From contig CAZMID010000001.1 of assembly GCA_964566255.1 (NCBI GenBank), positions 83,152 through 147,151 on the forward strand: a stretch of DNA of 64,000 bases, written 5' to 3'. Below are positions 32,553 through 64,000 of this stretch, in pieces. Each line of letters begins with the position of its first letter. Position 1 is the stretch's first letter. The notes under the pieces were generated by a model. That model worked only from the letters and a program-made list of their open reading frames with translations, had not been told where the DNA came from and ran no database searches. Origin of the DNA: an uncultured Planctomycetia bacterium (GTDB lineage: Bacteria > Omnitrophota > Gorgyraeia > Gorgyraeales > Gorgyraeaceae). The position numbers and the translations under genes were made by a program.

Positions 32553-32562
32553 TATATCTTGA

Positions 32563-32594: not shown

Positions 32595-32596
32595 TA

Positions 32597-33130: not shown

Positions 33131-33131
33131 T

Positions 33132-34616: not shown

Positions 34617-34618
34617 TT

Positions 34619-37097: not shown

Positions 37098-37111
37098 ATA
37101 TTACCTCCTGG

Positions 37112-38335: not shown

Positions 38336-38351
38336 ATATTAAATCCTATTT

Positions 38352-38588: not shown

Positions 38589-38597
38589 CTCGAAGTA

Positions 38598-40322: not shown

Positions 40323-40340
40323 AATGCTATCTCCTTGGTT

Positions 40341-44425
<4,085 letters not shown>

Positions 44426-44426
44426 A

Positions 44427-47500: not shown

Positions 47501-47503
47501 ATA

Positions 47504-48238: not shown

Positions 48239-48240
48239 AA

Positions 48241-48453
48241 TTATCCCCCAAATAGATTATATACGATTAAAAGTCCAATAACGGCAATAGCCTCTGCAAA
48301 TAAAAACGCCAATATCATAGCTAGTAAAATCTTAGGAGCTGCTGAAGGGTTCCTTCCTAAGGCCCTAACACTTGAATATCCTACTGCAGCTATAACACCA
48401 GACGGGCCTAAGGTACTAATTAACATTATGAGAATAACAGTAAAGTTTTTCAT
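48241..48453 (-). CDS. atpE: Fo ATP synthase c subunit (proteolipid)
   Basis: 70 aa; two TM helices joined by a polar loop ALGRNPSAAP (the ARQP-type loop); ion-binding Glu in FAEAIAVIGLL. Confidence 0.75.
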   Translation of the reverse strand: MKNFTVILIMLISTLGPSGVIAAVGYSSVRALGRNPSAAPKILLAMILAFLFAEAIAVIGLLIVYNLFGG

Positions 48454-49241: not shown

Positions 49242-49285
49242 ATAGATTTATGCAAATCAAATTTAAATGAGGCTGTAACTATCTT

Positions 49286-50074: not shown

Positions 50075-50126
50075 TTAATATTTCTCCTATATAGGTATTA
50101 GTGTATATGATGTTTTTAGTTTTTGC

Positions 50127-50168
50127 AAATAAAAAATCTAACCAGTTTCATTCTAGTCTGGTTAGATT
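50127..50168 (-). terminator. Rho-independent terminator after the giant gene (11-bp perfect stem AATCTAACCAG/CTGGTTAGATT with a U-tract)
   Basis: Stems at 50135-50145 and 50158-50168; a 12-nt loop; an A-run at 50127-50136 gives the U-tract on the minus-strand RNA; 40 nt downstream of the giant gene's stop. Confidence 0.65.
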
Positions 50169-50205
50169 TTATTAATTCCAATAGAGTAAACATATTCTCT
50201 ATTTT

Positions 50206-53200
50206 TTATTCTTCTATTGTCTCTATAATTCCTGTATCCATTTCTGCGGTTTCTGATGATACCATCCAAGTTGTCTGCACTGGTGCATCATTTCCTTGTT
50301 CTATAATATCCCTTACAAGATCAACTCCTGCTTTAACTTCTTCCTGCTTCTCTTGAATATACTTTCTATCACTCTTTCCTTCTTCTACGATCTTACCCAT
50401 ATTTCCTAAATCAACTCCTACCTGGCTAGTAACATTGTCAAATGCCTTACTGATATTAGCAAGGGCTGAAGATATACTCTGATTAAGCTCACTGGATATA
50501 GAATCTACTTCACTAGCCATACTAGTCAAGCCACCTAAAGCACCACTTAATGTTGCCAGTGATGACTCAAGAGTAGCTATAGTTGCAGCTGCAGATGCTA
50601 AGCTAGCTGTATCTATACCTGATACTGAACCCATAACAGCAGTGATATTAGAACTAATTGTTTCAAGATCTGCACTTATTGCCGCAACCGCTATTACATC
50701 AGTTGTGCCGTTAGATCCACTACATACAATACTATACAATCCTTCATCATCAGTTTCAAAATCATACGTATATATCCCTGTAGTCCCTACCTCTGACATT
50801 GAAGCAGCGCTTACTACTGTCTCCTCATCTGCATCATAAATACTTACAGTACAAGTAATGCCTGAAGTGGTCCTATATCTTATTTGGAAGGTATCTCCTG
50901 CCTCAAAATTAGTATATTCATTTATGATACGCGCACTTGCCTGCTTAGTTACAGCACTTGTTATGCTTGATTGCGATGAAGTAACAGCACTGGCTATAGT
51001 GGACTGTGAAGTAGTAATCGCTGTAGCTGTCGAGGCAGTGCCTGCTGTTATTGCAGCTTGAGTTGTGCTAGCGCTTGCTGTTACTGCGGCTTTGGTCAAT
51101 GTAGCTTGACTAGCTACTGTAGTCGCTAGTGAAGTTGTGCTGGCTGTTAACCTACTAACTATTGAATCTCCTCCACTTAACATATCAGCATCTGACATAC
51201 CAAACGCCCTATTAATCCTATACATCGTCATTGCTTCAGTAATATCAATTATATTCATATTCCAATGATAAGTACCTTCGTATTCAGCTCTTACCCTGGC
51301 TGAATATCTTGTACCTTCCTCAAGGTATCCATCAGCCCTTACATCTTCCCATACTGCCAGGAATTCTCCTGTAGTATTTAGCGTTGTAGTAGCAGTAGTA
51401 GATGTAAGCACTTCTGTATTACCATCAAATATCTGCACATAAAACTCAGTTACTCCTACTATACTATTATCCTCATCATTCTTAGGAATTAGGTTTTCTT
51501 GTTCCCTTAACCGAGCATTTAAATAAAGCATATCTGTAGAAGGACGATAATAGTGTTCTATTTCAACTGTTCTTTCCTTATTTATCGCTGCAGCATCAAG
51601 TGCTATATTAATCGTTTTATCATTCTCATCTGCCAAAAAGTTCGTAGAACCTGCTAAATAACCATTTCTTGAAACCTCAACACTAAACTGTACATTTGGT
51701 GTAAAGTATTGAGTTGCTGGAGAAACCACACCAGTAAAATCCCCGAATGTTAAACCTGTAGATGAATAATTAATGGTTACTGCAAGAGCTCTAAGGTGTC
51801 CGACAAGACCAGCAAGATCAGTTACATTTAACGTTGCTGCATAATAACTATTTGTAAAATCCCTAGTACCATAAACTGTTGAATCACTAGAATCTACTAT
51901 CTTAAAAGAAATAGCCTTGGGTGTATTATCGTTATTGACTGCATCAGGAGAACTCCATGAGTAGCTTCCATCATTAGCTATTTCACTATCTGCATATCCT
52001 TCATCTGTAGACTCTAAGTCTGCCATATTCTTCCAAGTGGTGCCACCGTCAGAACTGTAGAATAAATCTACATTTGCAATGGTTCCTGTTGTAGTCCACT
52101 CAATATCTTGAGCTACTCCAACATAAAATGTTGCATCAGCAGCAGGACTAGTTATAGTTAAAGCACCTTTAATACTAAGATTTGTATCAGAGGTATCATA
52201 TATACTAAGGTTAGAATCATCATATACCCTTACCTTAACTGTATCTGATATATCATCAGGGATATCTGTCCAAGTGTAAGTTCCATCATCTAAAGTAGAA
52301 TCTACTATTAAGGTAGAGCTACTAAAATTATCTGTAGAATATCTTATCTCAACATTGGCCCCTATAGATTCTCCTCTTGAAGTCCATGTAATATCAGTAC
52401 TACCAGCAACTGTCAGGGTATCTCCGCCATTAGGTGCAGTAAGATCTATCCTAGGTGCCGTTATCTCAAACACACCAGATGTTCCAATAACATCATAACC
52501 TGCAGTATCCCACGTCATATCCTGTGCTCTTATCTTAGCTGTATCTGATACTGTAAGATCATTTGGTATCTCCCATGAATAAGTGCCGTCATTGGTTTCA
52601 CCTGTGGCAATATCAACAACATCACCACTAAAAGTGCCACTTGGAGAATACTGTATTTTCATATCATCATAACATGTTCCTGCAGTAGACCACTTGATTG
52701 TATTCGTGTCGTTTCTTACCCAGATATTGCCTGCAACAGGTGCAGTAATAGTAATGCTTGCTAAGGAAATAGTAAATACTGCATCAGATGTATCGGATAC
52801 AGTACTGTCACTTGTACTAATTATCTTAATCTTACAATTACTAGAATCTGCTGTTGGTACAGTCCAAGTGTAAGTTCCAGTATTACTAAGACCTGTGACT
52901 ATATCAGTCCAAGTAGAGCCACTATTAGTTGAATATTGTAAGTCAACTTGTGAAACTGTTCCTGTATTTGTCCAGGTAATATCATTAGTTGTACCTACTG
53001 CCCAGTCCTGTCCGCCATTAGGCGCAGTCAATGTAAACTCTGGCTTAATGGAAAACACTGCATCAGAAATATCAAATATCCCTGAATCCTCTGCATCTAC
53101 TATTTTCACTAAACAATTATCCGAAATAGCATCAGGGATAGTCCAGTTATATTGTCCTGTAGCATCATCAAGGCTTCCTCCAACTAATGCATTCCATGTA

Positions 53201-56200
53201 GGAGTCTCCAAATCTCCATCTGTAGCATAATATAACCTTACATTATTAATAACGCCAGTTGTACTCCATTCAATAGGATGCTGTGTTCCAACCTTCCAGG
53301 TTACTGTACTATTAGGAGATGTTACTGCCAGGCTTCCTCGTTTTAAACTAAAAGTACTTGAATCTACATAAGCATATGTAGTACTATCACTAGCATCTGA
53401 TATTCTGACTTTTGCAGTAGTCGTAGAAAGACCTGCTGTTATATTCCAAACTTCAGAATGATCATTTGTAGCGGTATAATCACCTTCGTTAATCTCTGTC
53501 CAACTCCCTGAACCTGTAAGTGAATATTCTATTGTTACAGTATCTGCACTTACCCCTGCAGTAGTCGTCCATCCAATAACATAAGCAGTTCCTGCTGTAA
53601 GAATTATATCTGCTGGAGGAGTAGTAACAGTAAAAGGTGTAGCTATAGTTGTAGCATCAGTAACAGCATATATGTTCGAATCTGAAGAATGTGCTACTTT
53701 TATAAGTACATTAGCACTTGGCGTATTCTCTACTGCCCAAGGCCCATCATCACCTGTACCTGTACCATTATATTCATCATCATTAGTCACAGAAGTTTTA
53801 ATATTAGTCCAGTTAGTTCCTCCATCAATAGAATAAGATATATTCACGCTTGCTACTGTACCAGTAGTAGTCCATCCAATATCATAGGAATTACCGCAAA
53901 TAAAAGTAGTTCTTTCTGTATCTCCACCAGCATCAGTTATTGTAACTGCAGTTAAGCTACCTGCACCTACTGTAAAACTATTATCAGAAATATCATAGAC
54001 ATTTGCCTCATTATCTGCATCAGTTACTTTTATATAGACGTTGTTTGACTGATGTCCACCAGAAGGACTCCATTCATAAGAAGTTCCTGAAGTTGTAGCA
54101 AGTGCTTCACCCCAAACATCTCCTTCTGCACCTGTAGTTGAACAATATACCTTTACATCACCAAGGGTCCCTGTCTTAGTAAATGTAATATTACGAGCTG
54201 TTCCTACAGGCCAGCCTATACCTTCATCATTAGGATAGGTCAGAGCCAACACACCTCTTATATTAAATGTATCTGATAGATCTAATACACTTTCTTCAAC
54301 TGCTCCATTAAGTACTGCAGCTACCTTTATTTTACAATCCTCTGATATAGCATCAGCTACTGTCCAATCATATGTATTAGCCCCATCTGAATTAGCAATA
54401 GCAACAGGTGTTATAAGTGTCCATGTTGGAGTCCCAGCACTTGCATCAGTAGAATACCAGAGTTTTACTTCTGTAATACCACCTGATGATGTCCATGCAA
54501 TCTCAGGAGTAGAATCTACATTGAGTGTTGCACCAGAAGCAGGTGTAGTAATTTCAAAAGTAGGATTAAGTACCCAGTTAGTATTATTGCCTGAATCAAA
54601 ACAATTAGTACCTATACGCTCTGCTGTTAATGTAGAATCCTTTATATCAGCATAGGATACACTTACAGCTGCTGGAGCTAGAGTATGTGTTAGACCAGCT
54701 ATAGGACTACGTATTTGTACTCGGTCTGCTCCGGCTCCTCCTGTAATAGTAAAGGTGCCTGTCATTGTCTGAGTCTCACCTTGTTTAAACTGAAGTACCT
54801 TACCTTCAGAAGTACATGAAAAATTATAGAATGTAAATGGACCGTCTATAATTGAAATACTTCCTGATGTACCTGATATGGTAACGTTTCTGCTGTTATG
54901 AGTGAACGTTCCTGCTGTGAGTGTAAGGTTCCCCTTAACATCCAAAGTATCCTGCAAGGTCCAGGTAGTATCAGCATCATTAAATGTAAGATGATTTAGA
55001 GTCTGGCCTCCTGCTTTAACAGTCTTTGCACCTGTTGAAGAGGTCATATTCACTGTAGATGTACCTGAAGTGAGTGCAATATTAGTAAAATCTAATGATC
55101 CACTACAGTTAATAGTGGAGGACTCCATGTTCATAGCCTGTGTCCCTGTGGGCGTACCTGAATAGGCCTTTGATATATTAGCTATACTATGAGTGCCACC
55201 ATCTAGACGTAAGTCTGCACCATAAGTAATTTGAGCATCATGGCCTAATTTTAAATCTCCGCAACTAAGGTTATTTCCATCTAAATCTATAAAACTATCC
55301 TGTGCAGGTGTCTCATAAAATGCTACAGTATTATTACTAAAGTTCCAATTACCAAGGGCAGTAATGCCTCCCTGAGTAGTAGCTTTAACATATACCTTTC
55401 CTGAAACTAAACTATCAGGAAGCTGGAATGCTATCTGTGATGTAAGGGCTTCAAGATAGATATTTCCTAAGGTACTACTAACTGTAGTTGCTCCTGCTGG
55501 AGAAATCATGCCACTCAATGCTCCATAAAGATATATATCATTTGTAGCGCCTGCTATAGTACCATCTGCAAGAGTCAATTTATTAGCATGGATATCTCCA
55601 TCAAGCGTACTAGTAACACCAGTTGAGGCAAGAACTAAATCATTAATCTTACTTCCTGAATGTTGACAGTTTATAGTTCCACTAGCAGTTTGAGTCCACG
55701 TACCAGTAGAAGTAAGTAGATCTGTTACAGCTGCAGTTGATAGATTTACAAAACTGACTGTCTTTGCATTATCGATAAGTTTTCCTAAAGTTAAAGTAAG
55801 ATTATTACTTACTGTAAGATTCTTCTGCAATGTCCATTCTCCCTCTGAACCATTAACTGTCATATTATAGAAAGAGTTAACTATAGGTATATCGATAGTC
55901 TTTCCACTAGAAGTGCCATTAAATACTACAGTAGAAGTTGCTGGCGTAAAAGTAGTAGCAATAACAAAGCTTCCTGAACAATTAATTGTCTTTGTGCCTG
56001 TTACTGTAGCAGTATCATCAACAGTAAAATCCCCTGTTATGGTAAATGGACCCGCACCACTAAAATTTACAGTATCAAATGTAATATCACCTGTAGTAAA
56101 AGTCTGAGCAGCTGCGCCATTAAGGGTTATTGTAGTAGTCTCAAAATGTGTGAAGGTATTACTAGCACTTACATTCAAATGACGACCAACTAACAAGGTA

Positions 56201-59200
56201 TTAGTATCTACTGTAAAAGTACCACCGCTACCACTAAAAATTAAATCTCTAACGACTGTCATTGAGGTTCCTGCTGTTATTGTGTACTGACGTGTAGATG
56301 TCCCAGATGCAATAAGGTCTCGCCCAACATAAACTGTGTTATTATTATCACTAAATGTACCTTGGGTAAGTGTAAGGTCATTTTCAACCCTTAAATTATT
56401 CGTTGTAGACCAACTACCACTTGCACCATTAAAAATAAGATTATAGAATTTATTTAATGTTGGGCTACCTCCACTATAAACAGGAATATTTACAGTATTA
56501 CCTGAATCTGTAGCAGTAAAAGTAGCACTAGATGTACCAGGTGTAAATTGTGTACTTACAGCAAGGTTTCCACCTAAAGTAAGTGTCTGAGTTGCACCAT
56601 TCATATTCAATGTTGCTATGCTAAAATTTCCTGGTATAGCAATATTAGCATTATCATCTGTCATATTAAGGGTGCCTGTTGATGAACTAACCGTACCATA
56701 AGTAAGGTCCATATCTCCTGCAACTGAAGTAGCACCTGTCCCAAAATTAACATAACCATGGGTGTATTCACCAGGTACATAGAGATTCCCACCGATAGAA
56801 TGTGTACCTGATGAAAATAGAACCTCTCCATAAAGGGCATTTGGATAACTTCCACTATTAAAACCTAACTGTAAATTACCAGTTACTGTAAGATTATTAC
56901 CATTGGTATTAAGCGTAGCCTTTGAACCTGTTCCAGAACTTCCATATATAATAAGGTTCCCACCAACACTCCAATTACCAGTCATAGTAAGGGTGAGATT
57001 ATTAGTCCAGTTATATTGTACATTCCCACCAAAAGTAAGGGCTCCTTGACTTCTGGCAGCATTTATTCGCATACTAACCTCTGAAGAAATAGTAGCACCT
57101 GAGCCTTGAGTAATAAAATTATTTATAGCTGGATTATACAAAGTCACCATTGAACCAGTAATTGTAGAATTTGTTCCTAATATAAGACGTTTGGCACAGG
57201 TTTCAGCTGTCAAAGTCGCTGTTACGCTATTAGCTATTTGATAAGTGCTAAATGTATTAGAGCTTTCTTGTGAATTTGAAACATTACCACTTGCAGTCTG
57301 GTTCCATATACCAGTTGAAGTCAGACGAGACGCCTCATCAGCAATAGTAGCATTCACAAAATTAACTGTTCTTCCATTATCGACAAGCGTTCCATCATTA
57401 ACAATAATAGTCCCTGTTGAAGTAAGGTTTTGACCTCCGGTAGCACTTAATGTAACTGTACCAGTATAACCATCCTGCATACTGAAATTCGTTACTGCAA
57501 GTGCCTGGTTCACTGAGCAATCAGCTGTAGAAGTGCTATTAAATATTACATTATCACTTGCACCTGGAACACTTTCTGTTGACCAGTTACCTGCTGTTGC
57601 AAATAAACCATTTCCTGCACCATTTGTCCAGATAACATCATTGGCTAAGCCAAAATACCAGTTTGTATTATTCCCTGAATTAGTTGATGATATAGTTGCA
57701 ATAGCATTTCCACTGGATGCGTTTGAATCCTGGACATCCAGATAACTCATTCCTACAGCTATGCCTGATAGATTTATATTCCATGCATTTCCTGCAGAAG
57801 TACTATCTAATGTAATAAGATTTCCATCGGCACCTGTAAAGGTAAGATTCCCTGCTACAGTTACAGTCTTACCTGCTACAAAAGTAAGAGGCTTACCTGC
57901 TACAGTACAATTAAGGTTATAGAAAGGTGCTGTATTAAGAGCATCTCCCTCTTTATCATAATCATAGTCGATAATAGAATATATGGTTGCAGCGCCTGCA
58001 GTTGTAAGATTTACTGTAGATGTTCCTACATCAGTAACAGTGGAATACCTAAAATCTACATCCCCTGCTACATTTATAGTACCTGAACCGAAATTAATAT
58101 AACCATGGGTATATTGGCCAGCTGTATAAAGCTTTCCGCCAATAGTATGGGTACCTGATGAAAAAAGAATCTCTCCATAATACTTATCCAGATAAGATAC
58201 ATTATTAAGACCCAAACGTAAATCACCTGTTATTGTAAGGTTATTACCATTGGTATCAAGGGTATTTTTGATCTGTCCGTATCCTCCATATATCCTTAGG
58301 TCTCCACCTACATTCCAATTACCAGTCATAGTAAGTGTTTTATTTCCGCCGGAAACACTTACATTAGATCCAGCAGCAGTAGTTATGGTTCCTTGAGTTA
58401 TATTCGTACCCATATTATACCAAGCAATATTCGAATTAATAGTAGCACCTGAACCCTGAGTAAAAGAATCATTTACAGTAGGAGCCCACAGATAAAGTGT
58501 ACTACCATTAACTGTACTATTAGCACCTAATATAATTCTTTGTGCATAAGTAGCACCTGTTAAAGTGGCGGTCACACCACTAGCCACTTCATAAATATAC
58601 AATGGATAATTGCCGTATGTACTTATTATCGTCCCATCTGCAGTCTGTTTAAAGGTACCAGTTGATGCAATACGATTTGCTTCATGATCAATGGCTAAAT
58701 TTACAAAATTTATTGTCCTTCCATTATCATCAAGAGTTCCATTTTGAAGAGTAATAGTATCAGTTACAGTAAGGTCTTCATCTGCAGTAGGGCTTAATGT
58801 AACTGTCCCTGTATAATCATCATTTAAGGTAAGGTTTGCTATTGTATATGGATCAGTTACTGAACAGTTATCTGTAGAAGCAGAACTGAACATCACTGTA
58901 TCACCTGCACCAGGAACGCTTCCTGTTGACCAGTTGCCTGCACTTGAAAATAAACCATCTCCTGCACCATTTGTCCAGACTGTCTCCCCTGCACTACCAA
59001 AATACCAGTTTGTATTACCTGTTGAATCTGTAGAAGATAATGTTGCAATACCATTACCACTAGATGCATCAGAATCTTTAACATCTAAATAAGCACAATC
59101 TAAGGAATTTCCAGAAAGGTTTAAATTCCATGCAGTACCATCAGAGCTACTACGTAATGTAATATCATTATCTGTTCCAGATGTACCTGTAAGAGTAAGA

Positions 59201-62200
59201 TCATTTGCAATAGTTACAGTCTTCCCCGCCTCAAAGTTAATCTGCTTGTCAGGCTCAGTACAGGTGAGGTTATGGAAAGGTATATTACTAAAATCATCAG
59301 CGTATAAAGTCGCAGTATCTGCGCCTATCAAAGTAACAGTAGAGGTTCCTATAGTAACATCAGAATGACTGAAATCAATATCCCCTCCCACAGATACAGT
59401 GCCTGAGCCTAAATTAATAGTACCTGCTGTATTTGCTCCATGTACATAGAGACTACCTCCTATAGAATGTGTACCAGATGAGAAAAGGATTCCTCCATAT
59501 ATACGGTCCTCGTAAGATGGATGGCTATAACCCAACCGCAAATTATCACTCACTGTAAGAGTATTAGCATTAGTATCAAGAGTGCAAATTGATCCTATAC
59601 CTTCAGTCCAAACTCCATATATAGTAAGATTTCCAGTAATATCCCAATTACCATTCATGGTGATGGTACCAGCATAATCTACCATACTTACATTCCCAGA
59701 AATAGTAAGAGCTCCTAAACTTTTACTGCCAGTAGCAAAAGTAATATTCGAAGAAATTGTAGCACTTGAATCTTGAACAATAAAATTATTTACAGTAGGT
59801 CTTATAAAAATAGTACCGCCAGTAACTGTAGAATTAGCTCCTAAGACAAGTTTTTTGAAATAGCTAGTACCAGATATTGTCCCAGTTACTTCATCAGCCA
59901 ATTCATAATTAAATTTATTACTATGATTTTTTGGATTCGAAACAGTACCGCTTGCTGTCTGGTTCCATATACCAGTAGAAGTTAGGCGGGTTGCTTCATT
60001 GTCAATTGCCACATTTACAAAATTAACAGTCCTTCCATTATCAATTACTTTTCCATTCTGTAAAGTAACAGTGTCACTTACAGTAAGGTTCTGGCCTCCT
60101 GTAGTACTCAAGGAAACTTTCCCTGTTGTAGCATAACTATCTGATGTTGCAAAGTCATCTGCAAGTGTAAGGTTTGCTATTTCATATGATGCACCAGTTA
60201 AAGAACAATTTGCAGTTGAAAAATCACTGTCAAATATTACATTACTGCTTGAAGTTGGTACACTTCCTGTTGACCAGTTAGCAGCAGTTCCAAATAATCC
60301 ATCTCCTGAATTATTAGTCCAGTAGGTGTCATTAGCTGAACCAAAAACCCAACCAGTATTACCTGTAGAATCTGTTGAATTTAGAGTTACAATGTCATCT
60401 CCTGAAGAAGCATTTGAATCCTCAACATCTAAGTAATTCATTCCTGTAGCTGCGCCTGATACATTAAGATTCCATGCAGTATCAGGTGTAGTACTGTCTA
60501 ATGTAATAAGATTTCCATCGGCACCTGTAAAGGTAAGGTTATTTGCTATTGTAACAGTCTTACTTGCTTCAAAAGTAAGAGCCTTACCAGCAGTAGTGCA
60601 TGTCAGGTTATAAAAAGGAGTAGTATTTATATCATCACCGGTTGTACAAGCATACAATCTTGAGTCATCGGTTATAGTAACAGTAGATGTTCCTTCTACA
60701 ACAGTAGCCCTTCTAAAATTAACATTACCTCCTACTGAAATAGTGCCTGATCCTAAATTGAAAGTACCAGCGGTATCTGCATCAGCATAAACATACATAT
60801 TGCCGCCTATGGAATGAGTGCCTGATGAAAAGAGGATCTCACCTAAGTCGCTATTTGCAGTAACAGTTGCATCACCCAGTCGCAAATAACCACTTACTGT
60901 AAGATTATTACCATTGGTATCAAGAGTGGCCTTTGAGCCAGCGGCAGGTCTTCCATGTATCGTAAGGTTCCCTCCAACAGTCCAGTTACCAGTCATGGTA
61001 ACAGTAACACTATCTGCTTCTTTGATATTTAAATCTCCAGAAGTAGTAATAGCACCTTGTGTCCTACTATGATTTAATTGCATATAAACTGTACAAGAAA
61101 TAGTAGTGCCTGTCCCCTGAGTAATACAATCATCAAAAGTAGCCTTAGTGTATGGATATAATTTAAGAATTGAACCACCAGTAATAGTAGAATTATTTCC
61201 TAAGATAAGTCGAGCTGCATGGGTAAGGCCTGTTAAGGTTGCTGTTACACTTGCATCTATTTCAAGTGTACGAATAGGATTTGTATAGTGTGCATTTCTT
61301 ATAGTACCACTTGCTGTTTGTTTAAAAGTGCCATTTGAACTTAATCGTCCGGTTTCATAAGCAATAGAAAGATTTACAATATTTACTTGTCTTGAATTAT
61401 CATTAAATGTTCCATCAGCAATACTAATAGTATCTGTTACAGTAAGGTCCTGATCTGCAGTACCACTTAATGTAACTGTGCCAGTATAACCATCTTGCAT
61501 TGTGAAATTCGCTACTGTAGGTGTTGCACCAGCCAAAGAACAGTCAGCTGTGGAAGCAGAGCTAAACATTGCTGTATCCCCTGCACCAGGTACTGCTCCT
61601 GTTGACCAGTTACCTGCAGTTGAGAACAATCCGTCTCCTCCCGCATTTGTCCAAACTACTTCACCAGCTGATCCAAAATACCAGTTAGTGTTACCTGTTG
61701 AATCTGTAGAAGATATAGTCGCAATAGCATTTCCACTAGATGCATCAGAATTCTTAACGTCTAAATAAGCACAATTTAAGGAATTTCCTGAAAGATTAAG
61801 ATTCCAAGTAGTGGCACCACCTGTTACACTATCTAAAGTTATAAGATTACCATCTGCGCCAGTAAAGGTAAGATCATTGGCAACAGTTACAGTTTTGCCA
61901 TCTTCAAAGTCAATGGTTTGACCAGCTGTAGTAGAGATTAAGTTATAGAAAGGTGCTGTATTAAGAGGATCTCCTCCATCCTTATAAGTATAATCAACTA
62001 TAGAATATATAGTTGGAGTTGCACCTGTCAATGTTACAGTGGAAGTTCCTACAGTAACAGAAGCATATCTAAAATCAATATCTCCTCCCACTGAAACCGT
62101 ACCTGAACCCAAATTAAAATGACCGTGAGTGTATTGGCCTTCTACATAGATCTTTCCACCAATGGAGTGAGTTCCTGATGAAAATAGAATTGCACCCTGA

Positions 62201-64000
62201 TAACCATCTGGATAACTTCCACTACTCTGACCCAATTTTAAGTAACCACCTACTGTGAGATTATAGCCATTTGTATCTAAAGTACACACTGAGCCTGCAG
62301 TATGCATTCCATACACTTTAAGATTTCCAGTAATATTCCAATTACCAGTCATAGTGTTAGTAATAGAAGCTCCTTCACCCTGCATATATACATATCCGTT
62401 AATGGTCATAGCTCCTTGGGTTTTGTTGTTATTTCTATTTAAGACAACATTTGAATTAATAGTAGCGCCTGAACCTATAGTAATATAATCATTTACCGAA
62501 ACGTTATAAACGGATAGTATCGTACCATTAATAGTAGAATTAGCTCCCAAAATAACCTGTCTAACTATACTACTTGTAGTACTCGCAGTTATACTTGGAG
62601 CTAATTCATATATTTTAAGAGCGTTAGTATAATAATAGTTTGAAAGAGTTCCACTTGCTGTCTGATACCATTTGCCGGTTGAAGTTATACGAGTTGATGC
62701 ATAAGGAACAGTAAGATTTACAAAATTCACCTGCCTACCATTGTCAACTAATAACCCTTGATTAATAGTAATAGTACCTGTTGATGTAAGATCATGTCCT
62801 GAAGTGGCACTCAAAGTAATTGTTCCTGTATAATCATTAGTCATTGTCAAATCCACCACTGAAACCGCACCGCTTGTATTACAATCAGCTGTTGAAGTAG
62901 AATTAAATATTATATTATCTCCTGCAATTGGCACCGTATCGCATGTCCAGTTGGCTGCAGTTGAATATGCATTATCTGCCCCATCATTGGTCCAGATAAA
63001 ATTATTTGTAAAAGTCCAATTTGTGTTATTTCCACCGTTGGTTGATCGACATGCTGTAACTGCATTTCCACCAGATGAATTCATGTATGAAGCACTTACA
63101 TATACAACCTCTGCTGTTCCTGATACTGTAAGAGGTGAATCATTAGCTGCTGTTACAGGACCTAGTGTAATTAAGTTTCCATTGGCACCCTTTAAGTACA
63201 TTACCCCTGAAACCGTAGTAGTATTGGTAGAATCAAACTTTATAGTCTTACCTGCTGTAACACAACGTAAATTAACAAATGTACTTGTTCCTGTGATTTC
63301 TGAGGTGCCGGCTCCAGCAATTAATAAGGTAGAACCAGTATCAGCTGTAAGAGTACCGTTATTTGTAAAGTCACCACTTATAGTAAAAGTAATATTATCA
63401 TCAATGTGGAATACACCATTATTCTGTATAGTAACATTACCGACTGTAGTTCCAGTAATACCACTCTTAATCAAAGTAGTTGCCGTAGGAGCATCTACGC
63501 TATTATTATCAATTATTAGATCTCCTGCATTAGCACCCTGAGATGCTGTTTGTTTATAAATTGTACCAGCAGCACCTGTATGAATACCATTATAACTTGA
63601 TCCTCCATATGCCTGCATTGTAATACTTCCGAATGTATTTCCTGATGTCAATTTAACCGCTATTCTGCCGCCACCGCCGCCGCCATTGCCGCCGGCTGCA
63701 GTATCACTGCCGCCATCAGCTCTTATAACTCCTGTTCCACTAATAGTAGCTGTAGTAATATTAACTGTTCCTCCTGAACCGCACCCATAACCATCAGTAA
63801 AACCCACAGATCCTGCTGATATCGTTCCATTAATTGTTGTTGCGCCTGTAACAGTTAATATAGCTGCGCCGCCGCCATTATTAGTATTAGCAGATGAGCC
63901 GCCATCGCCTGCACTACCTATATTTACAGGGTTAGTTATAGAACCATAGGTAGTTCCATTTGTGCCATTTGGGTCTTTCCCTTCTCCTCCATATCCTGCT
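50206..64000 (-). CDS. Giant repetitive surface/adhesin-like protein (more than 4,597 aa; N-terminus beyond the window)
   Basis: Single uninterrupted minus-strand frame; the frame is still open at the window edge (checked by translating 63808-64000). Gly/Thr/Asn/Ser-rich with beta-helix-like repeats; nine tandem ~88-aa Ig-like domains; a Ser/Thr/Ala low-complexity linker; a C-terminal coiled-coil-like domain. No LPxTG or PEP-CTERM signal. Confidence 0.8.
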   Translation of the reverse strand, partial: AGYGGEGKDPNGTNGTTYGSITNPVNIGSAGDGGSSANTNNGGGAAILTVTGATTINGTISAGSVGFTDGYGCGSGGTVNITTATISGTGVIRADGGSDTAAGGNGGGGGGRIAVKLTSGNTFGSITMQAYGGSSYNGIHTGAAGTIYKQTASQGANAGDLIIDNNSVDAPTATTLIKSGITGTTVGNVTIQNNGVFHIDDNITFTISGDFTNNGTLTADTGSTLLIAGAGTSEITGTSTFVNLRCVTAGKTIKFDSTNTTTVSGVMYLKGANGNLITLGPVTAANDSPLTVSGTAEVVYVSASYMNSSGGNAVTACRSTNGGNNTNWTFTNNFIWTNDGADNAYSTAANWTCDTVPIAGDNIIFNSTSTADCNTSGAVSVVDLTMTNDYTGTITLSATSGHDLTSTGTITINQGLLVDNGRQVNFVNLTVPYASTRITSTGKWYQTASGTLSNYYYTNALKIYELAPSITASTTSSIVRQVILGANSTINGTILSVYNVSVNDYITIGSGATINSNVVLNRNNNKTQGAMTINGYVYMQGEGASITNTMTGNWNITGNLKVYGMHTAGSVCTLDTNGYNLTVGGYLKLGQSSGSYPDGYQGAILFSSGTHSIGGKIYVEGQYTHGHFNLGSGTVSVGGDIDFRYASVTVGTSTVTLTGATPTIYSIVDYTYKDGGDPLNTAPFYNLISTTAGQTIDFEDGKTVTVANDLTFTGADGNLITLDSVTGGATTWNLNLSGNSLNCAYLDVKNSDASSGNAIATISSTDSTGNTNWYFGSAGEVVWTNAGGDGLFSTAGNWSTGAVPGAGDTAMFSSASTADCSLAGATPTVANFTMQDGYTGTVTLSGTADQDLTVTDTISIADGTFNDNSRQVNIVNLSIAYETGRLSSNGTFKQTASGTIRNAHYTNPIRTLEIDASVTATLTGLTHAARLILGNNSTITGGSILKLYPYTKATFDDCITQGTGTTISCTVYMQLNHSRTQGAITTSGDLNIKEADSVTVTMTGNWTVGGNLTIHGRPAAGSKATLDTNGNNLTVSGYLRLGDATVTANSDLGEILFSSGTHSIGGNMYVYADADTAGTFNLGSGTISVGGNVNFRRATVVEGTSTVTITDDSRLYACTTGDDINTTPFYNLTCTTAGKALTFEASKTVTIANNLTFTGADGNLITLDSTTPDTAWNLNVSGAATGMNYLDVEDSNASSGDDIVTLNSTDSTGNTGWVFGSANDTYWTNNSGDGLFGTAANWSTGSVPTSSSNVIFDSDFSTANCSLTGASYEIANLTLADDFATSDSYATTGKVSLSTTGGQNLTVSDTVTLQNGKVIDNGRTVNFVNVAIDNEATRLTSTGIWNQTASGTVSNPKNHSNKFNYELADEVTGTISGTSYFKKLVLGANSTVTGGTIFIRPTVNNFIVQDSSATISSNITFATGSKSLGALTISGNVSMVDYAGTITMNGNWDITGNLTIYGVWTEGIGSICTLDTNANTLTVSDNLRLGYSHPSYEDRIYGGILFSSGTHSIGGSLYVHGANTAGTINLGSGTVSVGGDIDFSHSDVTIGTSTVTLIGADTATLYADDFSNIPFHNLTCTEPDKQINFEAGKTVTIANDLTLTGTSGTDNDITLRSSSDGTAWNLNLSGNSLDCAYLDVKDSDASSGNGIATLSSTDSTGNTNWYFGSAGETVWTNGAGDGLFSSAGNWSTGSVPGAGDTVMFSSASTDNCSVTDPYTIANLTLNDDYTGTVTLSPTADEDLTVTDTITLQNGTLDDNGRTINFVNLAIDHEANRIASTGTFKQTADGTIISTYGNYPLYIYEVASGVTATLTGATYAQRIILGANSTVNGSTLYLWAPTVNDSFTQGSGATINSNIAWYNMGTNITQGTITTAAGSNVSVSGGNKTLTMTGNWNVGGDLRIYGGYGQIKNTLDTNGNNLTITGDLRLGLNNVSYLDKYYGEILFSSGTHTIGGKLYTAGQYTHGYINFGSGTINVAGDVDFRYSTVTDVGTSTVNLTTAGAATIYSIIDYDYDKEGDALNTAPFYNLNCTVAGKPLTFVAGKTVTVAGNLTFTGADGNLITLDSTSAGNAWNINLSGIAVGMSYLDVQDSNASSGNAIATISSTNSGNNTNWYFGLANDVIWTNGAGNGLFATAGNWSTESVPGASDNVIFNSTSTADCSVNQALAVTNFSMQDGYTGTVTLSATGGQNLTSTGTIIVNDGTLVDNGRTVNFVNATIADEASRLTSTGIWNQTASGNVSNSQESSNTFSTYQIANSVTATLTAETCAKRLILGTNSTITGSMVTLYNPAINNFITQGSGATISSEVSMRINAARSQGALTFGGNVQYNWTNNLTLTMTGNWSVGGNLIIYGSSGTGSKATLNTNGNNLTVTGNLQLGFNSGSYPNALYGEVLFSSGTHSIGGNLYVPGEYTHGYVNFGTGATSVAGDMDLTYGTVSSSTGTLNMTDDNANIAIPGNFSIATLNMNGATQTLTLGGNLAVSTQFTPGTSSATFTATDSGNTVNIPVYSGGSPTLNKFYNLIFNGASGSWSTTNNLRVENDLTLTQGTFSDNNNTVYVGRDLIASGTSTRQYTITAGTSMTVVRDLIFSGSGGTFTVDTNTLLVGRHLNVSASNTFTHFETTTITLNGAAAQTFTTGDITFDTVNFSGAGPFTITGDFTVDDTATVTGTKTINCSGSFVIATTFTPATSTVVFNGTSSGKTIDIPIVNSFYNMTVNGSEGEWTLQKNLTVSNNLTLTLGKLIDNAKTVSFVNLSTAAVTDLLTSTGTWTQTASGTINCQHSGSKINDLVLASTGVTSTLDGDIHANKLTLADGTIAGATNDIYLYGALSGMISPAGATTVSSTLGNIYLEALTSQIAFQLPDSLVSGKVYVKATTQGGITALGNWNFSNNTVAFYETPAQDSFIDLDGNNLSCGDLKLGHDAQITYGADLRLDGGTHSIANISKAYSGTPTGTQAMNMESSTINCSGSLDFTNIALTSGTSTVNMTSSTGAKTVKAGGQTLNHLTFNDADTTWTLQDTLDVKGNLTLTAGTFTHNSRNVTISGTSGSISIIDGPFTFYNFSCTSEGKVLQFKQGETQTMTGTFTITGGAGADRVQIRSPIAGLTHTLAPAAVSVSYADIKDSTLTAERIGTNCFDSGNNTNWVLNPTFEITTPASGATLNVDSTPEIAWTSSGGITEVKLWYSTDASAGTPTWTLITPVAIANSDGANTYDWTVADAISEDCKIKVAAVLNGAVEESVLDLSDTFNIRGVLALTYPNDEGIGWPVGTARNITFTKTGTLGDVKVYCSTTGAEGDVWGEALATTSGTSYEWSPSGGHQSNNVYIKVTDADNEANVYDISDNSFTVGAGSLTAVTITDAGGDTERTTFICGNSYDIGWTTTGTVASVNISYSIDGGTNWTNIKTSVTNDDEYNGTGTGDDGPWAVENTPSANVLIKVAHSSDSNIYAVTDATTIATPFTVTTPPADIILTAGTAYVIGWTTTAGVSADTVTIEYSLTGSGSWTEINEGDYTATNDHSEVWNITAGLSTTTAKVRISDASDSTTYAYVDSSTFSLKRGSLAVTSPNSTVTWKVGTQHPIEWSTTGVINNVRLYYATDGDLETPTWNALVGGSLDDATGQYNWTIPDAISDNCLVKIVDAEDSGIFDISDAVFSIKPEFTLTAPNGGQDWAVGTTNDITWTNTGTVSQVDLQYSTNSGSTWTDIVTGLSNTGTYTWTVPTADSSNCKIKIISTSDSTVSDTSDAVFTISLASITITAPVAGNIWVRNDTNTIKWSTAGTCYDDMKIQYSPSGTFSGDVVDIATGETNDGTYSWEIPNDLTVSDTAKIRAQDMTWDTAGYDVIGTSGVFEITAPRIDLTAPNGGDTLTVAGSTDITWTSRGESIGANVEIRYSTDNFSSSTLIVDSTLDDGTYTWTDIPDDISDTVKVRVYDDSNLSIYDTSDTNLSIKGALTITSPAADATFYVGVAQDIEWTTTGTIANVDLFYSSDGGTTWKNMADLESTDEGYADSEIANDGSYSWSSPDAVNNDNTPKAISFKIVDSSDSTVYGTRDFTNSYYAATLNVTDLAGLVGHLRALAVTINYSSTGLTFGDFTGVVSPATQYFTPNVQFSVEVSRNGYLAGSTNFLADENDKTINIALDAAAINKERTVEIEHYYRPSTDMLYLNARLREQENLIPKNDEDNSIVGVTEFYVQIFDGNTEVLTSTTATTTLNTTGEFLAVWEDVRADGYLEEGTRYSARVRAEYEGTYHWNMNIIDITEAMTMYRINRAFGMSDADMLSGGDSIVSRLTASTTSLATTVASQATLTKAAVTASASTTQAAITAGTASTATAITTSQSTIASAVTSSQSSITSAVTKQASARIINEYTNFEAGDTFQIRYRTTSGITCTVSIYDADEETVVSAASMSEVGTTGIYTYDFETDDEGLYSIVCSGSNGTTDVIAVAAISADLETISSNITAVMGSVSGIDTASLASAAATIATLESSLATLSGALGGLTSMASEVDSISSELNQSISSALANISKAFDNVTSQVGVDLGNMGKIVEEGKSDRKYIQEKQEEVKAGVDLVRDIIEQGNDAPVQTTWMVSSETAEMDTGIIETIEE
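50930..51180 (-). repeat. Ser/Thr/Ala low-complexity linker coding region of the giant protein
   Basis: Encodes LTASTTSLATTVASQATLTKAAVTASASTTQAAITAGTASTATAITTSQSTIASAVTSSQSSITSAVT. Confidence 0.6.
51900..54580 (-). repeat. Array of nine tandem ~85-95-aa Ig-like beta-sandwich domains (Kre9/KNH-like pattern) in the giant protein
   Basis: Recurring pattern: TxPxxGxxWxVGxxxxIxWxxxGxxxxVxLxYSxDGGxTWxxIxxxxxxxGxYxWTxPxxxSxxCKIKIxxxxDS. Confidence 0.6.
57100..63500 (-). repeat. About five tandem ~1.34-kb coding repeats (~445-aa units, alternating A/B subtypes) inside the giant gene
   Basis: DNA segments at ~57.6, 58.9-59.1, 60.4, 61.5-61.8 and 63.0-63.1 kb are 75-85% identical at a ~1340-nt period. 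The protein units repeat motifs such as TGADGNLITLDS ... WNLNLSGNSL ... YLDVKDSDASSGN ... STDSTGNTNWYFG ... WTNGAGDGLFSTAGNWSTGSVPGAGD. Confidence 0.7.

What the first reader, a model, noticed from the sequence alone, without database searches (positions are those of the whole stretch)
50206..64000. Giant (>4,597 aa, truncated) modular surface-protein gene with two different repeat arrays
One open frame spans at least 13.8 kb and is still open at the window edge. It combines:
- about 2,200 aa of large beta-helix-like units,
- a non-repetitive beta-helix-like region,
- nine Kre9/KNH-like Ig domains,
- an S/T/A linker,
- a C-terminal coiled-coil-like domain with no recognisable sorting signal.

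Giant adhesin-like genes of this style are a hallmark reported for Omnitrophota and other episymbiotic or predatory small-cell lineages, where they are proposed to mediate host attachment. A strong terminator follows the gene, so it is an independent transcription unit. How a protein this size is exported and anchored is not evident from neighbouring genes.
Basis: partly seen in the sequence, partly recalled or inferred. Interest (0 to 1): 0.75.

Follow-up and report, generated by a model that had tools for sequence, protein, structure and literature searches.

The report
Giant Omnitrophota surface protein gene
This is a real, N-terminally truncated gene for a very large cell-surface protein of an Omnitrophota bacterium; it belongs to a conserved but unstudied family that sits, with a small membrane partner, inside the phylum's pilus/secretion and ATPase gene cluster.

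Summary
A stop-free frame of 4,597 codons runs on the minus strand from the window edge to a TAA at 50206-50208. It is reproduced in two independent public assemblies.

**Architecture**
- Glycine-rich N-domain.
- A degenerate sixth unit.
- Nine ~100-aa Ig-like domains; six hit Pfam Kre9_KNH.
- A ~540-aa C-terminal module.

- The C-terminal module defines an Omnitrophota family: 165 representative clusters. Complete members are 4.0-5.2 kaa with signal peptides and mostly end in PVTQTW[YF]E[YF][KR].
- Every relative examined has a conserved ~260-aa single-pass membrane protein immediately downstream. All five with visible upstream DNA also have secretin and TPR genes upstream.
- Five of six loci, including this window, have an F-type ATPase operon interleaved with GspE/F/G/J/K-PilMNO genes downstream. 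This matches the published 'symbiotic F-ATPase/T4aP' locus, so export machinery is in the neighbourhood.
- The member in cultured Velamenicoccus archaeovorus is detected in published metaproteomes.
- By homology, about 800 further residues beyond the 77 recovered from an ENA contig (about 876 in all), including a membrane anchor, lie beyond the window.

**Verdict:** an adhesin-like surface protein, and a new variant of a known kind. Its function is inferred, not shown.

The parts
50206..63999 (-). Giant ORF: 4,597 codons plus the TAA stop at 50206-50208. The N-terminus lies beyond the window edge.
   Evidence: ENA contigs L002 and L032 are 99.98-100% identical.
63289..63999 (-). Glycine-rich N-domain (aa 1-237; G 23%, T 16%). 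A recurring module also found in Planctomycetota and Verrucomicrobiota proteins. No Pfam or PDB sequence match.
   Evidence: Colinear with P0295 residues 877-1127.
62995..63288 (-). First ~100-aa 'cap' module (F-x-N-L ... N-T-N-W). Every large unit ends with the same module, and it occurs in large proteins of many phyla.
56650..62994 (-). Five ~447-aa units, starting at aa 336, 783, 1227, 1675 and 2124. Each begins with a W-x-N-x-x-G...N-W...P...D...F motif, which Pfam scores as Amnionless N-terminus-like. About 310 residues of right-handed parallel beta-helix follow, then a cap module.
54559..56649 (-). Degenerate beta-helix region (aa 2451-3147). It holds partial internal duplicates and a sixth, divergent unit that ends in the last N-T-N-W cap.
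   Evidence: 26-46% identity to the main units.
51841..54558 (-). Array of nine ~94-108-aa Ig-like domains (aa 3148-4053), Kre9/KNH-like.
   Evidence: Alignment A1. PF10342 hits 6 of 9 copies, best E 2.4e-6; Reelin_subrepeat-B hits 3 of 9.
50209..51840 (-). Family-defining C-terminal module (aa 4054-4597):
- two beta-sandwiches (51157-51840);
- a long helix that includes the S/T/A stretch (50935-51156);
- a highly conserved beta-sandwich (50683-50934);
- a helical bundle (50284-50682);
- the P-V-Q-T-T-W-M motif plus a 19-aa acidic tail (50209-50283).
   Evidence: - Exhaustive HMMER: 165 clusters at E<=1e-3, with the module terminal in 113 of the 150 listed hits.
- Alignment A3.
- Model me617febb0879: pLDDT 70, and 89-96 for the conserved sandwich.
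- No Pfam or NCBIfam family.
50123..50170 (-). Intrinsic-terminator-like hairpin (13 bp, 12-nt loop) plus U-tract, 36 nt after the stop codon.
   Evidence: dG -22 kcal/mol, z -5.2. An equivalent hairpin follows the closest relative's gene.
49286..50074 (-). Conserved partner gene of 262 aa: signal peptide, conserved N-domain (VVNPSKTxTQKAxLKxYLPKE...), coiled coil, a C-terminal TM helix and a short tail.
   Evidence: - Found immediately downstream of the giant gene in all 6 loci. Identity is 72% (L028), 45% in alignment A4 or 47% by BLASTP (L027), 35% (V. archaeovorus) and 31-33% (L029, L030).
- No Pfam, NCBIfam or PDB match.
48450..49241 (-). Exported Peptidase_MA_2 zinc metalloprotease (signal peptide, HELGH). 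In public gene calls it overlaps the start of the ATPase c-subunit gene.
   Evidence: Present at the same position in L027 and L028.
32597..48453 (-). F-type ATPase operon interleaved with sensor and T2SS/T4aP-like genes, in this order:
- ATPase c, b/delta, alpha, gamma;
- a PAS protein and a Cache-HAMP-PAS histidine kinase;
- ATPase beta;
- GspE;
- ATPase epsilon;
- GspF, GspG, a pseudopilin, GspJ, GspK, PilM-N, PilO.

No subunit a gene was annotated in the cluster, and no secretin was found among the ORFs of at least 120 aa that were scanned in the window.
   Evidence: The same order occurs in L027, L029 and L030. [quoted passage not shown]

Best explanation
The ORF encodes most of a ~5.4-5.5-kaa exported cell-surface protein of an Omnitrophota bacterium. 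It belongs to a conserved, uncharacterised family.

**Family features**
- An N-terminal signal peptide or membrane anchor.
- A long, lineage-variable rod of beta-helix, Ig-like, DUF2341 and LamG modules.
- A conserved ~300-500-aa C-terminal module.
- A conserved ~260-aa single-pass membrane partner encoded immediately downstream.

**Proposed mechanism, step by step**
1. Sec-dependent export through the N-terminal signal. This is inferred from relatives, because the N-terminus is outside the window.
2. Passage to, or display at, the cell surface with the help of the T2SS/T4aP-like apparatus whose genes flank the giant gene: GspA-like, GspC-like, secretin and TPR genes upstream, and GspE/F/G/J/K-PilMNO downstream. 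This is inferred from conserved synteny.
3. Retention of the protein through its C-terminal beta-sandwich and helical-bundle module, which docks on the periplasmic domain and coiled coil of the partner. This is inferred from strict gene pairing only.
4. The projecting rod of five to six beta-helix units and the nine-domain Ig stalk mediates contact with host or prey cells. This is inferred from fold analogy with beta-helix adhesins and from what is known of the phylum's lifestyle.
For: **Shown**
- The frame is uninterrupted and is reproduced in independent assemblies.
- The origin is Omnitrophota.
- Ig-like Kre9_KNH repeats are present.
- The C-terminal module has 165 cluster hits, 114 of them at E<=1e-10. 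It is terminal in 113 of the 150 listed.
- 23 complete members are 4,044-5,230 aa long, and 21 of those 23 have a hydrophobic N-terminal h-region.
- Every member that carries a taxon name is Omnitrophota, including V. archaeovorus WP_128700698.1 / QAT17732.1.
- The closest full-length relative, P0295 (6,037 aa, 58% identity over 3,550 aa), has an N-terminal TM anchor.
- The 77 extra residues recovered from ENA contig L032 align colinearly to P0295 residues 799-876.
- The partner gene is adjacent in 6 of 6 loci.
- A secretin lies within 10 kb upstream in 5 of 5 loci with visible upstream DNA.
- The ATPase plus GspE/F cluster lies downstream in 5 of 6 loci.
- The V. archaeovorus member is transcribed (TPM 80) and detected at riBAQ 705/100/398 ppm. 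Its neighbour QAT17731.1, probably the partner, is detected at 490/136/448 ppm (PMC12583861 Table S2).

**Literature**
- Giant Omnitrophota genes are generally preceded by gspD/E/F-like systems (10.1101/2023.11.21.568195; 10.64898/2026.06.07.730766).
Against: - No experiment or computation here links the giant protein physically to the secretin system or to the partner. Synteny is the only evidence.
- T2SS substrates of this size are not known (own knowledge).
- In V. archaeovorus the ATPase/GspEF genes are not downstream of the giant gene, so that part of the linkage is not universal.
- This protein ends ...PVQTTWM plus an acidic tail, not the WFEFK-type end of most members, so any role of the terminal motif may differ here.
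- The N-terminus, and hence the signal peptide, was not seen for this gene.
- Five public contigs break at window 49270/49271. This is unexplained, although conserved synteny argues that the junction is natural.
Confidence: 0.6

Rival explanations
1. Structural coat or S-layer-like envelope protein. The family would form a constitutive surface layer (the 'velamen' of coated cocci) rather than a host-specific adhesin, with the partner as its membrane tether.
For: - The V. archaeovorus member is fairly abundant in metaproteomes, and more so in the cell fractions than in the aggregate fraction: 705 and 398 ppm against 100 ppm.
- The composition is T/S/N/G-rich and acidic.
Against: - riBAQ of a few hundred ppm is far below typical S-layer abundance (own knowledge).
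- There is no SLH or other known S-layer anchoring domain.
- The middle region varies strongly between close relatives: 4.6+, 6.0 and 12.5 kaa. That fits an interaction surface under diversifying pressure better than a lattice.
Confidence: 0.15
2. Surface-displayed polysaccharide depolymerase. The beta-helix units would be catalytic, like tailspikes, PL or GH87 enzymes, and would digest prey envelope polymers.
For: - West-Roberts et al. propose cell-wall degradation for Omnitrophota giants.
Against: - Identity to these enzymes is 8-13%. Adhesins (UpaB, EtpA, pertactin, Vag8) score equally.
- No glycoside hydrolase or lyase Pfam or NCBIfam model is hit.
- Five near-equivalent tandem units look like a spacer or avidity array rather than an active site.
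Confidence: 0.12
3. Mechanical 'leg' of an ATPase-driven attachment or motility machine. The giant protein and its partner would be the surface output of the adjacent non-respiratory F-type ATPase, by analogy with Mycoplasma mobile gliding proteins and their F1-like ATPase.
For: - The giant gene and partner lie directly upstream of the ATPase operon in 5 of 6 loci. In L029 and L030 nothing lies between them.
- No subunit a gene is annotated in any of these clusters.
- Seymour et al. place these ATPases with the Mycoplasma type 2/3 gliding ATPases.
Against: - The V. archaeovorus locus lacks the ATPase next to the giant gene.
- No sequence or structural comparison with Gli349 or Gli521 was made.
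- The partner has only a short cytoplasmic tail with which to couple to anything inside the cell.
Confidence: 0.08
4. Assembly chimera or pseudogene: the long frame is an artefact of mis-assembled repeats, or is not expressed.
For: - Five public contigs end within 2 nt of window 49270/49271, and both ENA contigs stop ~232 nt past the window edge.
- One ENA scaffold contains an N gap inside the gene.
Against: - Two assemblies from different samples agree to 2 mismatches in 10.8 kb.
- The units share at most 41 nt exactly and are 64-71% identical at nucleotide level.
- A frame of 4,597 codons without a stop at 37% GC cannot arise in non-coding or scrambled sequence.
- The architecture is colinear with a 6,037-aa relative.
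- A homologue is expressed.
Confidence: 0.03
5. Classical type V (autotransporter or two-partner) or type I (RTX/LapA-like) secreted adhesin.
For: The beta-helix units resemble type V passengers (UpaB, EtpA, pertactin, IgA1 protease). Ig-repeat stalks are typical of type I giant adhesins (own knowledge).
Against: - There is no C-terminal beta-barrel: the end is a beta-sandwich plus helical bundle.
- There are no RTX repeats.
- There is no TPS domain in the N-terminus of the closest relative.
- No TpsB/Omp85 or ABC/MFP genes lie next to the gene in any locus.
- Relatives carry Sec-type signal peptides.
Confidence: 0.02

Closest known systems
Unnamed Omnitrophota family annotated 'DUF2341 domain-containing protein'. 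Examples: WP_128700698.1 / QAT17732.1 of Ca. Velamenicoccus archaeovorus LiM, MBN2120281.1, MDP3791098.1, RKY42002.1.
   Same: - Homologous C-terminal module.
- The same ~260-aa partner gene downstream.
- Kre9_KNH/Reelin-like Ig repeats.
- Size class of 4-6 kaa.
- Same phylum.
   Different: - The middle region here is built from five to six beta-helix units, rather than the Kelch, LamG and DUF2341 modules seen in the precomputed annotation of most members examined.
- The C-terminus ends PVQTTWM plus an acidic tail, not WFEFK-type.
- No DUF2341 hit occurs in the visible part; in the closest relative it lies in the N-terminal region that is missing here.
Giant Omnitrophota ORFs: 'Archaeovorin' and 'Dockerin-type' (West-Roberts et al. 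2023, bioRxiv 10.1101/2023.11.21.568195), and the tandem-repeat scaffold class (Nielsen & Lui 2026, bioRxiv 10.64898/2026.06.07.730766).
   Same: - Same phylum.
- Very long, mostly Pfam-dark, repeat-rich extracellular protein.
- Genes of a T2SS/T4P-like system nearby.
- Proposed role in contact with host or prey.
   Different: - Much smaller: ~5.5 kaa against >10-147 kaa.
- No TM helices in 4,597 aa.
- No SecA_DEAD, C39/S8 peptidase, glycosyltransferase, dockerin or TSP3 domains.
- The beta-helix is the ordinary parallel kind, not the antiparallel tubule those authors describe.
- A text search found none of the searched terms bearing on it (DUF2341, and PF10102 or ATP-synthase adjacency) in either paper; the C-terminal module and its partner could not be searched by name.
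'Symbiotic' F-type ATPase / type-4a pilus loci of Omnitrophota (Seymour et al. 2023, PMC10066038).
   Same: The window's ATPase operon is interleaved with GspE/F/G-PilMNO genes exactly as described for these loci.
   Different: In the passages retrieved, that paper treats giant ORFs (>20 kb) separately and does not describe a 4-6-kaa protein plus partner as a fixed neighbour of the locus. That link comes from this analysis.
Beta-helix adhesins of type V secretion: UpaB, Ag43, pertactin, EtpA/FhaB, Fap2.
   Different: No beta-barrel or TPS domain, different neighbours, and the beta-helix comes as discrete ~447-aa capped units rather than one continuous passenger.
Giant type I secreted adhesins with Ig-like extender arrays (LapA, SiiE, MpIBP); comparison from own knowledge.
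   Same: An Ig-like stalk that projects a distal binding region. Retention at the envelope by a terminal module, with a nearby exported protease, is a possible functional parallel (Peptidase_MA_2 here).
   Different: No RTX repeats or T1SS genes, and relatives have Sec signal peptides. The retention and release analogy is speculative.

Membership tests
Omnitrophota giant-protein family defined by the conserved C-terminal module (unnamed; includes WP_128700698.1) | Homologous C-terminal module: conserved beta-sandwich, helical bundle and a P-V-x-Q-T-W end motif. | tested here: met
   phmmer against 1.84 billion representatives found 165 hits at E<=1e-3; the best non-self hit is 3.4e-150, and many lie between 1e-20 and 1e-42. 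Alignment A3 shows invariant M, Y, G and W positions and the PVxxTW motif.
Omnitrophota giant-protein family defined by the conserved C-terminal module (unnamed; includes WP_128700698.1) | The module sits at the extreme C-terminus. | tested here: met
   The module is terminal in 113 of 150 hits. Here it is followed only by a 19-aa acidic tail, as in a subgroup of members (P0150, P0172).
Omnitrophota giant-protein family defined by the conserved C-terminal module (unnamed; includes WP_128700698.1) | A ~260-aa single-pass membrane partner is encoded immediately downstream. | tested here: met
   Window 49286-50074. Homologues occupy the same position in L027, L028, L029, L030 and L031.
Omnitrophota giant-protein family defined by the conserved C-terminal module (unnamed; includes WP_128700698.1) | N-terminal signal peptide or membrane anchor. 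| not testable with these tools
   The N-terminus lies beyond the window and beyond both ENA contigs. 21 of 23 complete relatives have one, and P0295 has a TM anchor.
Omnitrophota giant-protein family defined by the conserved C-terminal module (unnamed; includes WP_128700698.1) | Secretin and TPR genes (with or without a two-component system and a DUF2341 protein) within 10 kb upstream. | not testable with these tools
   The upstream DNA is not in the window. The feature is present in 5 of 5 relatives with visible upstream DNA.
Omnitrophota giant-protein family defined by the conserved C-terminal module (unnamed; includes WP_128700698.1) | DUF2341 (PF10102) and LamG domains in the passenger. 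| tested here: inconclusive
   There is no hit in the visible 4,597 aa. In the closest relative, DUF2341 lies at residues 477-534, a region that corresponds to the part missing here.
Archaeovorin / Dockerin-type giant proteins (West-Roberts 2023) | Numerous TM helices; SecA_DEAD domain; enzyme domains (Archaeovorin) or dockerin/TSP3 repeats (Dockerin-type); length above 30 kaa. | tested here: not met
   Pfam finds none of these domains. There is no TM segment, maximum KD19 1.54. The expected length is ~5.5 kaa.
Type V secretion adhesins (autotransporter / two-partner) | C-terminal beta-barrel translocator, or an N-terminal TPS domain with a TpsB partner. | tested here: not met
   The C-terminus is a beta-sandwich plus helical bundle. 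There is no autotransporter Pfam hit, no TPS in P0295's N-terminus and no Omp85-type neighbour.
Type I secreted RTX/LapA-like giant adhesins | C-terminal RTX nonapeptide repeats and adjacent ABC/MFP/OMP genes. | tested here: not met
   No RTX or HemolysinCabind hit. The neighbours are T2SS/T4P-like and ATPase genes.
Kre9/KNH-like Ig domain (Pfam PF10342) | Sequence match to the Pfam model at or above its gathering score of 24.6 bits. | tested here: inconclusive
   Six of nine copies match at E<=10, best E 2.4e-6. Copy 1 scores 24.3 bits, just under the cut-off. The whole-protein scan did not list the family. Precomputed annotation marks it 'faint' or 'weak' in orthologues.
Right-handed parallel beta-helix fold (pectate-lyase-like) | Three-stranded parallel coils, with structural superposition on solved beta-helix proteins. 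| tested here: met
'Symbiotic' F-type ATPase/T4aP locus (Seymour 2023) | F-type ATPase genes co-located within 10 kb of type-4a pilus/T2SS-like genes in an Omnitrophota genome. | tested here: met
   GspE lies between ATPase beta and epsilon, and GspF-PilO follow directly. Whether alpha and beta fall phylogenetically in the 'type 2/3' clade was not tested.

The most novel reading that the evidence does not exclude
The 4-6-kaa protein and its ~260-aa partner would be the dedicated surface output of the Omnitrophota 'symbiotic' secretin/T4aP-like/F-type-ATPase apparatus.

On this reading, the conserved C-terminal module, ending PVTQTW[YF]E[YF][KR] in most members, is a previously undescribed docking or sorting determinant. 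It would tether a secretin-dependent giant adhesin to an inner-membrane partner. The adjacent ATPase operon, in which no subunit a gene was annotated, and the exported MA-clan metalloprotease might then power or release it.

That would amount to a new mode of surface display for very large proteins in ultra-small episymbiotic bacteria.
Probability: 0.25. Interest if true: 0.75.

Novelty: new variant of a known kind. Interest (0 to 1): 0.5.

Why it matters
Omnitrophota are ultra-small bacteria thought to live on or prey upon other cells. Their giant genes are the main candidates for how they attach, yet nearly all are sequence-unique and hard to compare.

**Why this family is tractable**
- It is conserved across the phylum.
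- It has a recognisable C-terminal module and a fixed partner gene.
- It sits inside the secretin/pilus/ATPase locus already proposed to underlie symbiosis.
- It has an expressed member in the only cultured representative, V. archaeovorus LiM.

**What becomes testable**
The open questions are how such proteins are exported and anchored, and whether the odd ATPase is coupled to them. They can be approached by:
- localisation;
- interaction mapping between the C-terminal module and the partner;
- re-analysis of existing proteomes.

**Limits of the novelty**
The gene itself is not a surprise for this phylum. What is new is the organising pattern around it.

Tried and rejected
**Searches that failed or gave little**
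- A homology search with the whole 4,597-aa protein timed out.
- Word-indexed searches with the N-terminal 350 aa and with one unit returned only short, distant fragments and missed the known self-matches. One useful hit came out of them: P0018.
- A GTDB genome scan with the first 400 aa found only 30-46% relatives of the cap module, spread over many phyla, and no source genome.
- A JGI metagenome scan with the first 200 aa found nothing.

**Readings I dropped**
- I first read P0018 (residue 128 aligned to window residue 1) as meaning that only ~127 aa were missing. The 77 extra residues from ENA contig L032 align to P0295 residues 799-876 instead, so I dropped that model.
- I first took the split gene in L001 for a 28-nt frameshift. 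It is a 12-N scaffold gap.
- I considered that the window might join two unrelated contigs at 49270/49271. I rejected this because the same gene order occurs on an 833-kb contig and on three other long contigs.

**Structure and family searches**
- NCBIfam gave nothing for the giant protein, its C-terminal module or the partner.

**Other**
- Rfam and tRNA scans of the window were empty.
- Kizina et al. 2022 (PMC9004380) is not held.
- One literature search was wasted on the word 'Kelch'.


Full report
**1. Observation**

On the minus strand a single frame is open from the window edge (base 63999) to a TAA at 50206-50208. That is 4,597 codons. The ORF lister's 4,533-aa entry merely starts at the first GTG inside the window.

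- In DNA of 36-38% GC a stop-free run of this length cannot be chance.
- Two ENA metagenome contigs from different samples carry the same sequence. L002 has 2 mismatches in 10,805 nt. L001/L032 is identical except for a 12-N scaffold gap, which explains why that record splits the gene.
- L032 extends the open frame by 77 more codons before the contig ends.
- The large repeats are 64-71% identical at nucleotide level and share at most 41 identical bases. TRF finds no long-period array; its maximum period of 500 nt could not in any case detect the ~1,340-nt units. Repeat-driven mis-assembly is therefore unlikely.

**2. Anatomy**

Residue 1 is the window edge.

- **aa 1-237:** a glycine-rich domain with no Pfam or PDB sequence match.
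- **aa 238-335:** a ~100-aa 'cap' module (F-x-N-L ... N-T-N-W). It also closes every large unit and occurs in big proteins of many phyla.
- **aa 336-2450:** five units of 444-449 aa, mostly 45-70% identical to one another, and as low as 38% in some 200-aa windows. Each begins with a W..G...NW...P...D...F motif that Pfam scores as the Amnionless N-terminus.
- **aa 2451-3147:** degenerate copies of the same unit at 26-46% identity, not a non-repetitive region.
- **aa 3148-4053:** nine Ig-like domains. Six hit Pfam Kre9_KNH, best E 2.4e-6; the one score shown (copy 1, 24.3 bits) is just under the 24.6-bit cut-off.
- **aa 4054-4597:** the C-terminal region described in section 4.

No TM helix occurs anywhere in the visible protein.

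**3. Organism and context**

ATPase beta in the window is 100% identical to a public protein. The most similar proteins that carry an organism-level name are Candidatus Omnitrophota, with one Planctomycetota at 60% identity as the exception.

Downstream of the giant gene, on the same strand, lie the following:
- a 262-aa protein with no family;
- an exported Peptidase_MA_2 metalloprotease (HELGH);
- an F-type ATPase operon (c, b/delta, alpha, gamma, beta, epsilon), interrupted by a PAS protein, a Cache-HAMP-PAS kinase and GspE;
- GspF, GspG, a pseudopilin, GspJ, GspK, PilM-N and PilO.

This is the 'symbiotic F-type ATPase/T4aP locus' that Seymour et al. describe across Omnitrophota (PMC10066038).

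**4. The C-terminal region is a family signature**

An exhaustive HMMER search of 1.84 billion representatives with the last 521 aa found 165 clusters at E<=1e-3, of which 114 were at E<=1e-10.

- In 113 of the 150 listed hits the match ends within 10 residues of the protein's C-terminus.
- 75 end in W[YFML]E[YF] plus at most 3 residues, typically ...ANKPVTQTWYEYK.
- The 23 complete long members are 4,044-5,230 aa, and 21 of them have a hydrophobic N-terminal h-region.
- Every member with a taxon name is Omnitrophota. These include WP_128700698.1 / QAT17732.1 of cultured Ca. Velamenicoccus archaeovorus LiM, annotated 'DUF2341 domain-containing protein'.
- This window's protein belongs to a subgroup that ends ...PVQTTWM followed by an acidic tail.

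The AF2 model of the module (27-sequence alignment, pLDDT 70) shows:
- two beta-sandwiches;
- one 86-residue helix that covers the 'S/T/A linker'. That stretch shows a weak ~10.4-residue hydrophobic periodicity (spectral power 0.99), and laid out in rows of 11 it reads as six similar segments. In relatives it is a charged helical repeat;
- a very confident conserved beta-sandwich (pLDDT 89-96);
- a helical bundle.

**5. Conserved locus**

I examined the loci of six family members:

| Locus | Giant protein | Source |
|---|---|---|
| window | ≥4,597 aa | this window |
| L027 | 12,503 aa | syntenic orthologue on an 833-kb contig |
| L028 | P0295, 6,037 aa | closest relative |
| L029 | P0169, 4,911 aa | - |
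| L030 | P0200, 5,079 aa | - |
| L031 | 4,548 aa | V. archaeovorus |

- All six have a homologue of the 262-aa protein immediately downstream (31-72% identity). It has a signal peptide, a conserved N-domain, a coiled coil and a C-terminal TM helix.
- All five loci with visible upstream DNA (those above plus L021/P0018) have a secretin within 10 kb upstream. TPR proteins are listed separately in four; in L021 the TPR hits lie within the second secretin gene. L029 and L030 also have GspA-like and GspC-like genes. The closer relatives also have a HisKA_3 kinase, a GerE-type regulator and a separate DUF2341 protein.
- Five of the six loci have the ATPase/GspEF cluster downstream. The V. archaeovorus locus does not.

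This synteny also settles a worry. Five public contigs end within 2 nt of window 49270/49271. Yet the same join exists on long contigs of relatives, so the window is not a false concatenation. The reason for the recurrent break remains unexplained.

**6. The missing N-terminus**

- P0295 is 58% identical to the window protein over 3,550 residues. Window residue 1 corresponds to P0295 residue 877.
- The 77 extra residues from L032 align colinearly to P0295 residues 799-876 at 58.5% identity.
- P0295 starts with a basic stretch and a TM helix, and carries PbH1-like repeats and DUF2341 before that point.
- By homology, the full protein is therefore about 5.4-5.5 kaa with an N-terminal anchor or signal.
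- Orthologue lengths of 6.0 and 12.5 kaa show that the middle region expands and contracts between close relatives.

**7. Expression**

In the supplementary table of PMC12583861 the V. archaeovorus member QAT17732.1 has:
- 80 TPM in the metatranscriptome;
- riBAQ of 705, 100 and 398 ppm in the three metaproteome fractions.

The adjacent QAT17731.1 has 490, 136 and 448 ppm. By gene order it is probably the partner. This is evidence for a homologue, not for the window's gene.

**8. Transcription**

A 13-bp hairpin plus U-tract follows the stop (dG -22 kcal/mol, z -5.2). An equivalent hairpin and a conserved ~55-nt leader occur in L028. In L029 and L030, however, the partner gene starts 25-37 nt after the giant gene's stop. 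In L028, the upstream DUF2341 gene ends one base before the giant gene's start codon. 'Independent transcription unit' is thus at best lineage-specific and applies only to the 3' side.

**9. Interpretation**

What is shown:
- a real gene;
- its fold classes;
- family membership;
- the conserved partner and locus;
- expression of a homologue.

What is inferred:
- Sec export via the unseen N-terminus;
- secretin/T2SS-T4aP-assisted display;
- tethering through the C-terminal module to the partner;
- adhesion to host or prey cells by the beta-helix/Ig rod.

The rivals are a structural coat protein, a surface depolymerase, and a mechanical element coupled to the adjacent ATPase. None is excluded. 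Assembly artefact and classical type V or type I adhesin readings are essentially excluded.

**10. Comparison and novelty**

Giant adhesin-like ORFs next to T2SS/T4P-like genes are already described for Omnitrophota (10.1101/2023.11.21.568195; 10.64898/2026.06.07.730766; PMC10066038). The kind is therefore known.

This protein differs from the described Archaeovorin and Dockerin classes:
- no TM helices;
- no SecA_DEAD domain;
- no enzyme domains and no dockerins;
- about 5.5 kaa, which falls below the size thresholds of those surveys.

A text search of the two giant-gene papers found no mention of DUF2341, of ATP synthase next to giant genes, or of this terminal module.

I rate it a new variant of a known kind, with interest 0.5. 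The gene itself is expected for the phylum. The conserved pattern of module, partner and locus, together with an expressed member in a cultured organism, makes a long-standing question testable: how these giants are exported and anchored.

Noticed in passing
window 49270-49271: Five public contigs from independent assemblies end within 2 nt of this point. ENA L001 and L002 reach it from the giant-gene side; JGI L022/L024 and ENA L025 and L026 reach it from the ATPase side. No repeat or palindrome is visible there. Synteny in relatives shows the junction is natural, but the reason for the recurrent break is unknown.
   Followed up: partly
window 32597-48453: The F-type ATPase operon is interleaved with other genes. 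PAS and histidine-kinase genes sit between gamma and beta, GspE sits between beta and epsilon, and GspF-PilO follow. No subunit a gene was annotated in this or the related clusters. This fits the published 'symbiotic' non-respiratory ATPase/T4aP loci.
   Followed up: partly
window 48450-49241: An exported MA-clan zinc metalloprotease (signal peptide, HELGH). In public gene calls its end overlaps the start of the ATPase c-subunit gene. It is conserved at this position in L027 and L028 but absent in L029 and L030. It might process or release the giant protein, but this is pure speculation.
   Followed up: no
L027:1-1001 (JGI 3300028903, Ga0302250_1000002): The syntenic orthologue in a related genome (ATPase beta 78% identical) is called as 12,503 aa, about 2.3 times the expected size here. 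Only its last 333 residues were read. Its C-terminus and partner gene are homologous.
   Followed up: partly
window 62995-63288, and the end of every large unit: The ~100-aa F-x-N-L...N-T-N-W 'cap' module has 30-46% relatives in large proteins of Wallbacteria, Proteobacteria, Elusimicrobia, Planctomycetes, Patescibacteria, Nitrospirota and others. It has no Pfam model and was poorly predicted by AlphaFold (pLDDT below 50).
   Followed up: partly
L028:29391-30011 and 31305-32756; L030:9032-9982; L031:5462-6328: Y1 (IS200-like) transposase genes, and an HNH/RRXRR gene in L028, are inserted inside or beside the conserved locus in several relatives. This suggests the locus is a hotspot for mobile elements.
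   Followed up: no
window 26658-28817: HypF appears as two adjacent ORFs. One, of 367 aa, carries the HypF C-terminal Kae1-like domains. The upstream one, of 349 aa, has no Pfam hit at E<=1e-3. This may be a split or divergent HypF, and it lies next to HypD and HypE.
   Followed up: no
window 2184-4948: A staphylococcal-nuclease-like protein (270 aa) lies next to a 651-aa protein with an N-terminal PilZ domain. PilZ genes were reported near giant genes in Omnitrophota, but these lie 45 kb away from the giant gene here.
   Followed up: no
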